Assembly (NCBI GenBank): GCA_964016885.1
Contig: OZ024759.1
Coordinates: forward strand, 26,040,001-26,104,000
Source: Eledone cirrhosa
Taxonomy: Eukaryota
DNA: 64,000 nt
Direction: 5' to 3'
Part shown: positions 9,150-9,196 of the stretch, piece after piece
Position numbering within the stretch: the stretch's first letter is position 1
Layout: the number at the start of each line of letters is the position of its first letter
Made by a program: the position numbers and the translations under genes
Notes under the pieces: generated by a model
Database searches by the model: none
What the model was told of the DNA's origin: nothing
Seen by the model: the letters and a program-made list of their open reading frames with translations, nothing else

Positions 9150-9196
9150 CTTCTACAGGACTAGAACTGTTTCATTCGGGAGAAATCATCAGGAAG
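9150..9196 (-). ncRNA. Type I hammerhead ribozyme motif (family A), near intact
   Basis: Minus strand CUUC-CUGAUGA-U UUC UCCC GAA U-GAAA-CAG UUCUAGUC CUG-UA-GAAG: stem I CUUC/GAAG, stem III ACAG/CUGU, GUA cleavage triplet, U-U at 10.1/11.1. Confidence 0.75.

What the first reader, a model, noticed from the sequence alone, without database searches (positions are those of the whole stretch)
9150..9196. Near-intact monomeric type I hammerhead with a non-canonical U10.1-U11.1 pair
Seen on the minus strand: full core, 4-bp stem I, 3-bp stem II, 4-bp stem III with an 8-nt loop and a GUA site. The U...U closing of stem II recurs in the 48 kb and 49.5 kb paralogues, so it is a family trait rather than decay. 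This is the best candidate for an active ribozyme in the window. It abuts a SINE fragment (9200-9224) containing the B-box region on the same strand.
Basis: partly seen in the sequence, partly recalled or inferred. Interest (0 to 1): 0.75.

Follow-up and report, generated by a model that had tools for sequence, protein, structure and literature searches.

The report
Penelope retrotransposon 5'-end hammerhead relic
This is one of tens of thousands of short leftovers of a known kind of animal jumping gene, likely copied from the capped, uncut front end of its RNA; the odd U-U pair in its self-cutting-RNA motif is shared by the whole family and by published relatives, and this copy is predicted to fold worse than its siblings, so it is ordinary.

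Summary
The motif is real: intact core, U10.1/U11.1, 3-bp stem II, 4-bp stem III, 8-nt loop, GUA site (9148-9198, minus). It is a 54-nt promoterless piece of a Hydra-clade Penelope-like element (PLE). The core occurs 24,101 times with U/U and 506 times without U10.1; sister-subfamily copies carry an intact 713-aa RT/endonuclease-type ORF.

U/U is precedented: 14 of 26 Hydra rows in a 2021 supplement, and a natural variant reported in 2011. Stem I covaries between subfamilies, so the fold was likely selected in master elements.

This copy has a minority A (7 of 100) that mismatches stem I and favours a misfold (computed hammerhead probability 0.001 against 0.03). Loop III keeps a palindrome, so 'monomeric' is unproven.

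More interesting: stem I begins 31 nt after a TATA box (50 of 56 copies), short copies carry an extra G there (71 of 100), and copy starts do not peak at the cut site. Capped, uncut RNA was therefore likely the template.

No RNA data; activity is untested. The scan noted a Hydra-clade fixed-mismatch hammerhead before, on other DNA of this genome.

The parts
9145..9198 (-). Promoterless 54-nt fragment of a Hydra-clade Penelope-like element, from the inferred transcription start to 9 nt past the cut site
   Evidence: Family identity; ends
9193..9198 (-). Stem I 5' arm; A at 9197 is a minority base that mismatches C9149
   Evidence: 7 of first 100 matches have A; 1 of 56 promoter-bearing copies
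9186..9192 (-). Core C3-A9, intact
9174..9185 (-). U10.1 (9185), 3-bp stem II with 4-nt loop, U11.1 (9174)
9170..9173 (-). Core G12-A15.1, intact; complementary to the 5' strand of stem II, which gives a slipped inactive pairing
9155..9170 (-). Stem III, 4 bp, with 8-nt loop (9166-9159) holding a 4-nt palindrome
9153..9154 (-). Predicted cut site, between A17 (9154) and G9153
   Evidence: sequence; position by hammerhead consensus, not tested
9148..9153 (-). Stem I 3' arm
9199..9224 (-). 26-nt fragment of a tRNA-type SINE (B-box region, no A box). G9199 fits both the SINE and a cap-derived G
   Evidence: full SINE copies at window 4333+, 4701-, 37977-, 43373-
9090..9144 (-). C-run, (CT)n and (TA)n microsatellite flank, likely the insertion target
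   Evidence: same kind of flank in L002, L019, L027
48037..48227 (.). Back-to-back inverted pair of the same family; both keep U/U, both cores damaged
49465..49665 (.). Second inverted pair of the family; both keep U/U, both cores damaged
14133..14170 (-). Decayed family copy, U/U kept, core damaged

Best explanation
The motif is a short promoterless fragment of a Hydra-clade Penelope-like retrotransposon, likely reverse-transcribed from the capped, uncut 5' end of the element's RNA, and this copy is likely silent or only weakly active. Shown: full elements have CCAAT and TATA motifs, the hammerhead, a tail of about 125 nt, an ATG 175 nt after the core, a 713-aa ORF and a second hammerhead-bearing repeat 5,966 bp on. 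Inferred: RNA starts at the first base of stem I and is capped. The element's protein nicks (TA)n DNA, starts reverse transcription in or near the tail and runs off the cap, adding a base that reads as an extra G. It then joins the target or jumps to another RNA, here likely a SINE RNA. Inferred: the master hammerhead is a slow ribozyme with no tertiary contact that I could find. U/U, a weak stem II and competing pairings would keep most RNA uncut. It would cut as a monomer or as a 5'/3' double hammerhead through the loop III palindrome, possibly with help from the element's protein.
For: Parent: tail runs into an ORF in L121; promoter, hammerhead, tail and ORF start are contiguous in L132 and L136, L142-L148; 713-aa ORF in 4 of 8 stretches fetched with RWR, DKT, YRDDG, CxCx5C, CxxC and CxH motifs, matching the Hydra definition. 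Start site: first stem I base at position 31 from the TATA box in 50 of 56 copies, preceded by C or T in 55 of 56. In A/T-joined short copies the preceding base is G in 71 of the first 100 of 185 (58 of 87 after dropping 13 rows that may come from an inverted partner, counted by eye). L137 starts at this G and runs into the ORF. Uncut template: about 5 of 100 copies anchored 3' of the cut site begin within 2 nt of it; among 44 distinct TA-joined loci, 6 begin at it, 9 just 3' of it, 7 at about -22 (both by eye). Frangieh 2024 found internal initiation on unprocessed RNA and a protein-assisted hammerhead. Selection on the fold: 2 of 6 stem I pairs change on both sides between subfamilies. This copy: hammerhead fold 4.3 kcal/mol above the ensemble, P 0.001, against 2.2 and 0.03 for L063.
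Against: No RNA data: start site, cap and cleavage are inferred from DNA footprints only. At this locus G9199 is also the next SINE base, so the cap G cannot be assigned here. Intact ORFs were seen only in the sister subfamily with a different loop II; L165 and L166, of this copy's subfamily, had no element ORF of 250 aa or more. In that sister subfamily two 5' ends lie 2-3 nt before stem I (L163, L164). The ORF has no significant Pfam or PDB hit (GIY-YIG E 0.069); the clade call rests on motifs and a by-eye comparison with published proteins, not a tree. Covariation is only 2 pairs, and 166 of 500 shuffles reach that number. Folding energies ignore Mg2+ and core contacts; other natural copies score as low as this one (L137 0.0014, L142 6e-5). 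Absence of a cut-site peak would also follow if cut RNA is degraded or never translated.
Confidence: 0.8

Rival explanations
1. This copy is an active monomeric ribozyme when read through in a host transcript.
For: Core intact; stem III with an 8-nt loop can form in one strand, unlike the 1-3 nt loops of the 26 tabulated Hydra rows. U-U is reported as the best-tolerated mismatch at 10.1-11.1. Fungal PLE hammerheads with a long stem III cut as monomers. A 675-codon open frame lies on the same strand about 10.5 kb downstream.
Against: No promoter; stem I mismatch; P(hammerhead) 0.001, falling to 1e-4 or less with upstream flank; loop II varies freely between subfamilies, so no conserved tertiary contact. 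Whether the locus is transcribed is unknown.
Confidence: 0.1
2. The family hammerhead works mainly as a double hammerhead that cuts both repeats, releasing a unit RNA that is circularised and copied, as proposed for PLEs and retrozymes.
For: Double hammerhead computed below two monomer ensembles in 5 of 8 copies tested, including this one (-22.4 against -20.9) and L063 (-29.6 against -23.9). Loop III is the same in 96 of 119 copies while loop II varies. Head-to-tail units exist. Model from Cervera 2014.
Against: Tandem junctions fall at the inferred start site, often with an extra G, not at the cut site; copy starts show no cut-site peak. 3 of 8 copies did not favour the dimer. This rival is compatible with the best explanation as a minor route.
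Confidence: 0.25
3. The family motif is catalytically dead and is kept only as a protein-binding or start-site structure.
For: Nearly all copies span the uncut site; hammerhead mutants did not affect insertion of the anole element in vitro; Naiads spread without canonical hammerheads.
Against: The core and GUA site are the same across subfamilies whose loop II and stem I have diverged; the anole hammerhead does cut with protein.
Confidence: 0.15
4. The hammerhead belongs to the SINE, as in schistosome hammerhead SINEs.
For: The SINE piece abuts it on the same strand.
Against: Of 38 pattern matches in the loci held, only this locus runs from the SINE piece into the hammerhead; intact SINE copies continue into their own body. 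The hammerhead's own upstream sequence is a TATA-bearing repeat.
Confidence: 0.02

Closest known systems
Hydra clade of C-terminal endonuclease Penelope-like elements and their hammerheads (Craig et al. 2021, PMC8557442; passages, section 11, supplement part 2 and passages of part 7 seen)
   Same: Single ORF of about 700 aa with RWx, DKT, CxCx5C, CxxC/CxH motifs; (TA)n targets; inverted 5' copies; type I hammerhead; U at both ends of stem II in 14 of 26 rows; same 4-bp stem III in 4 rows; an octopus member is listed.
   Different: Loop III is 8 nt (1-3 nt in all 26 rows); stem II continues with two U-A pairs; the full element is about 6 kb because of a 3.6-kb microsatellite-rich 3' region (published ones generally under 3 kb); the listed octopus family has a different hammerhead without U/U.
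Natural U10.1-U11.1 hammerhead variant (Perreault et al. 2011, PMC3088659; passages and section 8 seen)
   Same: Stem II starts with a U-U mismatch; the paper, citing Ruffner 1990 (not read), calls it the best-tolerated mismatch there.
   Different: Described there as a rare variant; here fixed in over 24,000 matches. Its source and rate are in figures that I could not see.
Poseidon element PAc of the green anole (Frangieh et al. 2024, PMC11167929; parts 1-2 of 4 read)
   Same: Hammerhead near the repeat-ORF junction, internal start of reverse transcription that leaves a tail, AT-rich targets, unprocessed RNA as main template.
   Different: Other clade; no stem III described; its ORF starts inside stem II, here 175 nt after the core; no cap footprint in the parts read.
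Metazoan PLE minimal hammerheads (Cervera and de la Pena 2014, PMC4209133; parts 1-2 of 4 read)
   Same: Type I, in the element's terminal repeats, mostly dispersed as truncated copies, some in close opposite pairs, palindromic loop III, low activity.
   Different: Those keep G10.1-C11.1 with an extra base after A9 and have little or no stem III.

Membership tests
Hammerhead ribozyme, type I | Conserved core C3-A9, G12-A15.1, U16.1, H17 | tested here: met
Hammerhead ribozyme, type I | Three helices around the core, open at stem I | tested here: met
   94.6% of cells paired over 33 copies, 2 stem I pairs with double changes; not the minimum-energy fold in this copy
Hammerhead ribozyme, type I | Paired 10.1-11.1 (usually G-C) | tested here: not met
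   U/U; a documented tolerated exception, so it lowers expected rate rather than membership
Hammerhead ribozyme, type I | Tertiary contact between stems I and II for fast cleavage | tested here: inconclusive
   No conserved loop II sequence; stem I has no distal extension if RNA starts at its first base; no formal pseudoknot covariation test run
Hammerhead ribozyme, type I | Mg2+-dependent self-cleavage after H17 | not testable with these tools
   No RNA reads or assay; Rfam gave no hammerhead hit on 9100-9260
Monomeric hammerhead | Cleaves without a second copy | tested here: inconclusive
   Stem III can form in one strand; double hammerhead computed as more stable in 5 of 8 copies
Hydra-clade Penelope-like element | Single ORF, RT then C-terminal GIY-YIG endonuclease | tested here: met
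   713 aa, LDI and YRDDG motifs, VYK/YIG at 586-604; Pfam GIY-YIG only E 0.069, below cut-off; 692 relatives at E<=1e-20 among 7,995 scored
Hydra-clade Penelope-like element | RWK and DKT motifs, CxCx5C linker, CxxC and CxH in the endonuclease, no CCHH | tested here: met
   RWR 38, DKT 116, CxCx5C 566, CxxC 666, CxH 694; RWR rather than RWK; absence of CCHH read by eye
Hydra-clade Penelope-like element | (TA)n targets, pseudo-LTRs with hammerhead, inverted 5' copies, tail | tested here: met
Hydra-clade Penelope-like element | Placement in the clade on an RT tree | not tested
   Reference proteins were seen only as text in a supplement and compared by eye
Non-LTR retrozyme | Tandem non-coding units, each with an intact type I hammerhead | tested here: not met
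   Single 54-nt piece; nearest family copies are 5 kb and 39 kb away with damaged cores; definition
Hammerhead-bearing SINE | Pol III A and B boxes upstream of the hammerhead as a recurring unit | tested here: not met
   No A box; junction seen once among 38 pattern matches

The most novel reading that the evidence does not exclude
In this Hydra-clade family the hammerhead is the first 51 nt of the capped mRNA, so cutting would remove the cap from the element's own message and, at the 3' repeat, detach the tail where copying starts. The fixed U/U and weak stem II would then be a selected brake on a self-destruct switch, and the genome holds a fossil 5'-end map showing that capped, uncut RNA is the template in vivo.
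Probability: 0.25. Interest if true: 0.55.

Novelty: new member of a known kind. Interest (0 to 1): 0.27.

Why it matters
As a single locus it matters little: it is one fragment among tens of thousands and not the best of them. The family is useful because the role of PLE hammerheads is still open, and this one offers intact young elements, a precise inferred start site at the first base of stem I, and DNA footprints that fit an in vitro result on another clade (uncut RNA as template). It also shows that descriptor and Rfam searches that need a paired 10.1-11.1 miss a very abundant animal hammerhead.

Tried and rejected
Rfam on the window and on 9100-9260: only microsatellite noise, no hammerhead. 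ARAGORN: none. RNA runs: no RNA holder listed; three contig runs of unrecorded kind were laid on L161 and cannot show starts, ends or expression, so they were not used as evidence. Extending upstream from the repeat ended in microsatellites and did not find the ORF; the ORF was found through the tail. A different PLE-like ORF next to a family copy in L062 was rejected as parent because the junction departs from the family tail. Pfam and PDB gave no significant hit for the 713-aa ORF. An alternative reading with an extra base after A9 does not restore a 10.1-11.1 pair (sequence). A possible intron in the tail and a possible tail-to-core pairing were seen by eye and not tested. Lunse et al. on dimeric PLE hammerheads is not held; I saw only its citation and a review passage (PMC6765202). 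Perreault supplements held no text for the U-U variant. Paper searches for U-U rates gave nothing that I opened. Also seen: bioRxiv 10.64898/2026.07.22.740005 part 1 of 5 and passages of PMC2377424 (the Drosophila promoter is TATA-less). The neighbouring open frame could not be named. Searches failed and were rerun.

Full report
Observation. One match is found in the window against 0.01 expected from shuffles. Stem I has six positions with one A-C mismatch (A9197). The SINE piece spans 9199-9224, matches the B-box region of an abundant tRNA-type SINE, and lacks the A box and the first G of the B box. Five other family copies in the window keep U at 10.1 and 11.1, and all five have core damage. 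Rfam does not detect the motif.

Family. The 3.0-Gb genome has 24,101 exact matches to the core with U/U and any loop II, 506 with another base at 10.1 (99 of the first 100 still have U11.1 and none is G-C), and 12,149 matches to the stem III 24-mer; reversed-pattern controls are 0. These counts may include tandem arrays and duplications. Copies sit in (TA)n, often as back-to-back inverted pairs. That the host is a cephalopod is my recall from the SINE and repeat make-up, echoed by earlier scan notes; I did not test it.

Parent element. Longer copies share an upstream repeat with CCAAT and TATA motifs. The tail runs on into an ORF. Promoter, hammerhead, tail and ORF start are contiguous in L132 (this copy's subfamily) and in L136 and L142-L148 (part of that output was cut). 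Four of 8 stretches fetched hold a 713-aa ORF, and L163 is a full element with hammerheads 5,966 bp apart. All four belong to a sister subfamily with a different loop II. The protein has the Hydra-clade motifs of Craig et al. 2021 and resembles their listed proteins by eye. It has 692 relatives at E<=1e-20 among 7,995 scored but no significant Pfam or PDB hit. No tree was built.

The U/U pair. It is not new. Craig's File S2 has U at both ends of stem II in 14 of 26 Hydra rows (14 of 25 families), entered in the core columns; the term U-U does not occur in their main text. Perreault et al. 2011 report a natural U10.1-U11.1 start of stem II and cite it as the best-tolerated mismatch. What differs here is the 8-nt loop III (1-3 nt in all 26 rows) and the two U-A pairs after U/U.

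Was the fold selected? In 33 aligned copies (32 promoter-bearing plus this one; 5 of 37 candidates were left out as inverted-partner or shifted matches) 94.6% of cells pair, and 2 of 6 stem I pairs change on both sides between subfamilies. Only 166 of 500 shuffles are needed to show how weak the pair count is; stems II and III show no double changes. Loop II varies widely while loop III is the same in 96 of 119 copies. This supports selection in master elements, modestly.

This copy. A9197 occurs in 7 of the first 100 of 651 matches and in none of the 28 promoter-bearing rows among them (by eye), and in 1 of 56 promoter-bearing copies held. It breaks a stem I pair and makes the 5' arm complementary to loop III, while stem II's 5' strand can pair with the core GAAA; that is the minimum-energy fold (z -0.5). 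The hammerhead fold has computed probability 0.001, against 0.03 for L063 and 0.012 for L161; other natural copies are as low or lower. With upstream flank it falls to 1e-4 or less. These energies omit Mg2+ and core contacts and serve only for ranking. A double hammerhead through the loop III palindrome is computed below two monomers in 5 of 8 copies, this one included, so 'monomeric' is open.

How such copies likely arise. The first base of stem I lies at position 31 from the TATA box in 50 of 56 copies, across subfamilies with different spacers, and is preceded by C or T in 55 of 56. In short copies joined to A/T-rich flank the preceding base is G in 71 of the first 100 of 185, T in 13, A in 10, C in 6; dropping 13 rows that may come from an inverted partner leaves 58 of 87 (by eye). 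An untemplated G is the expected trace of copying a cap (established knowledge, recalled). Head-to-tail junctions also fall here. Starts do not peak at the cut site: about 5 of 100, and 6 of 44 distinct loci against 9 just downstream and 7 at about -22. So capped, uncut RNA was likely the template, as found in vitro for the anole element. At this locus G9199 fits both the SINE and a cap, so only the family shows the signal. The sister subfamily has two 5' ends 2-3 nt earlier. I did not find this cap footprint described in the listings and passages from searches, but I opened only seven papers in part.

Limits. No RNA run was listed; cleavage, capping and expression are untested. Lack of a cut-site peak does not show inactivity, since cut RNA may be lost before copying.

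Verdict. A real hammerhead motif, a new member of a known kind, and a poor choice for a first activity test. Interest 0.27. The boldest reading, a self-decapping brake on transposition, has probability 0.25 and interest 0.55.

Noticed in passing
window 35114-35137+, 49702-49725+, 49845-49868+: Minimal PLE-type hammerheads of other families with G10.1-C11.1, an extra A after A9 and almost no stem III; the third has U4C. Likely dimer-only.
   Followed up: partly
window 47560-47715: Inverted pair of another PLE-like family with a 5-bp stem III, a palindromic loop and a tail motif shared with this family; recurs in many loci.
   Followed up: no
window -1397 to -3421, minus (L169:6579-8603): 675-codon open frame, acidic and low-complexity, with a short motif that I recall as eh1-like; no Pfam or PDB hit, no homeodomain frame seen in L169 1-6600. 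Same strand as the hammerhead, about 10.5 kb downstream of it.
   Followed up: partly
L161:675-752 in run X1: Contig joints that go back about 78 nt suggest head-to-tail arrays of a TATA-plus-hammerhead unit; strand imbalance may reflect arrays. Not checked in the assembly.
   Followed up: no
L123-L129: Head-to-tail junctions from about 165 nt past the core back to the inferred start site, often with an extra G: a third start or template-jump site.
   Followed up: partly
L081:1700-1760: A family tail is followed by a SINE fragment that begins at the same B-box position as the window's fragment.
   Followed up: partly
L121 and family tail, before the ATG: Pyrimidine-rich acceptor-like site and a branch-point-like motif in the tail; no clear donor. 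A 5' intron is possible, as in other PLEs.
   Followed up: no
window 51462-64000: At least 12.5 kb of degenerate ACC/ACT triplet repeat with strong strand skew.
   Followed up: no
L062:1620-3129; L170 from 8092: Fragments of other RT-bearing elements: a frameshifted PLE-like ORF in L062 and a 636-codon frame in L170.
   Followed up: no
L021, L016, L026, L005: Further unrelated hammerhead-like cores in loci fetched for this family.
   Followed up: no
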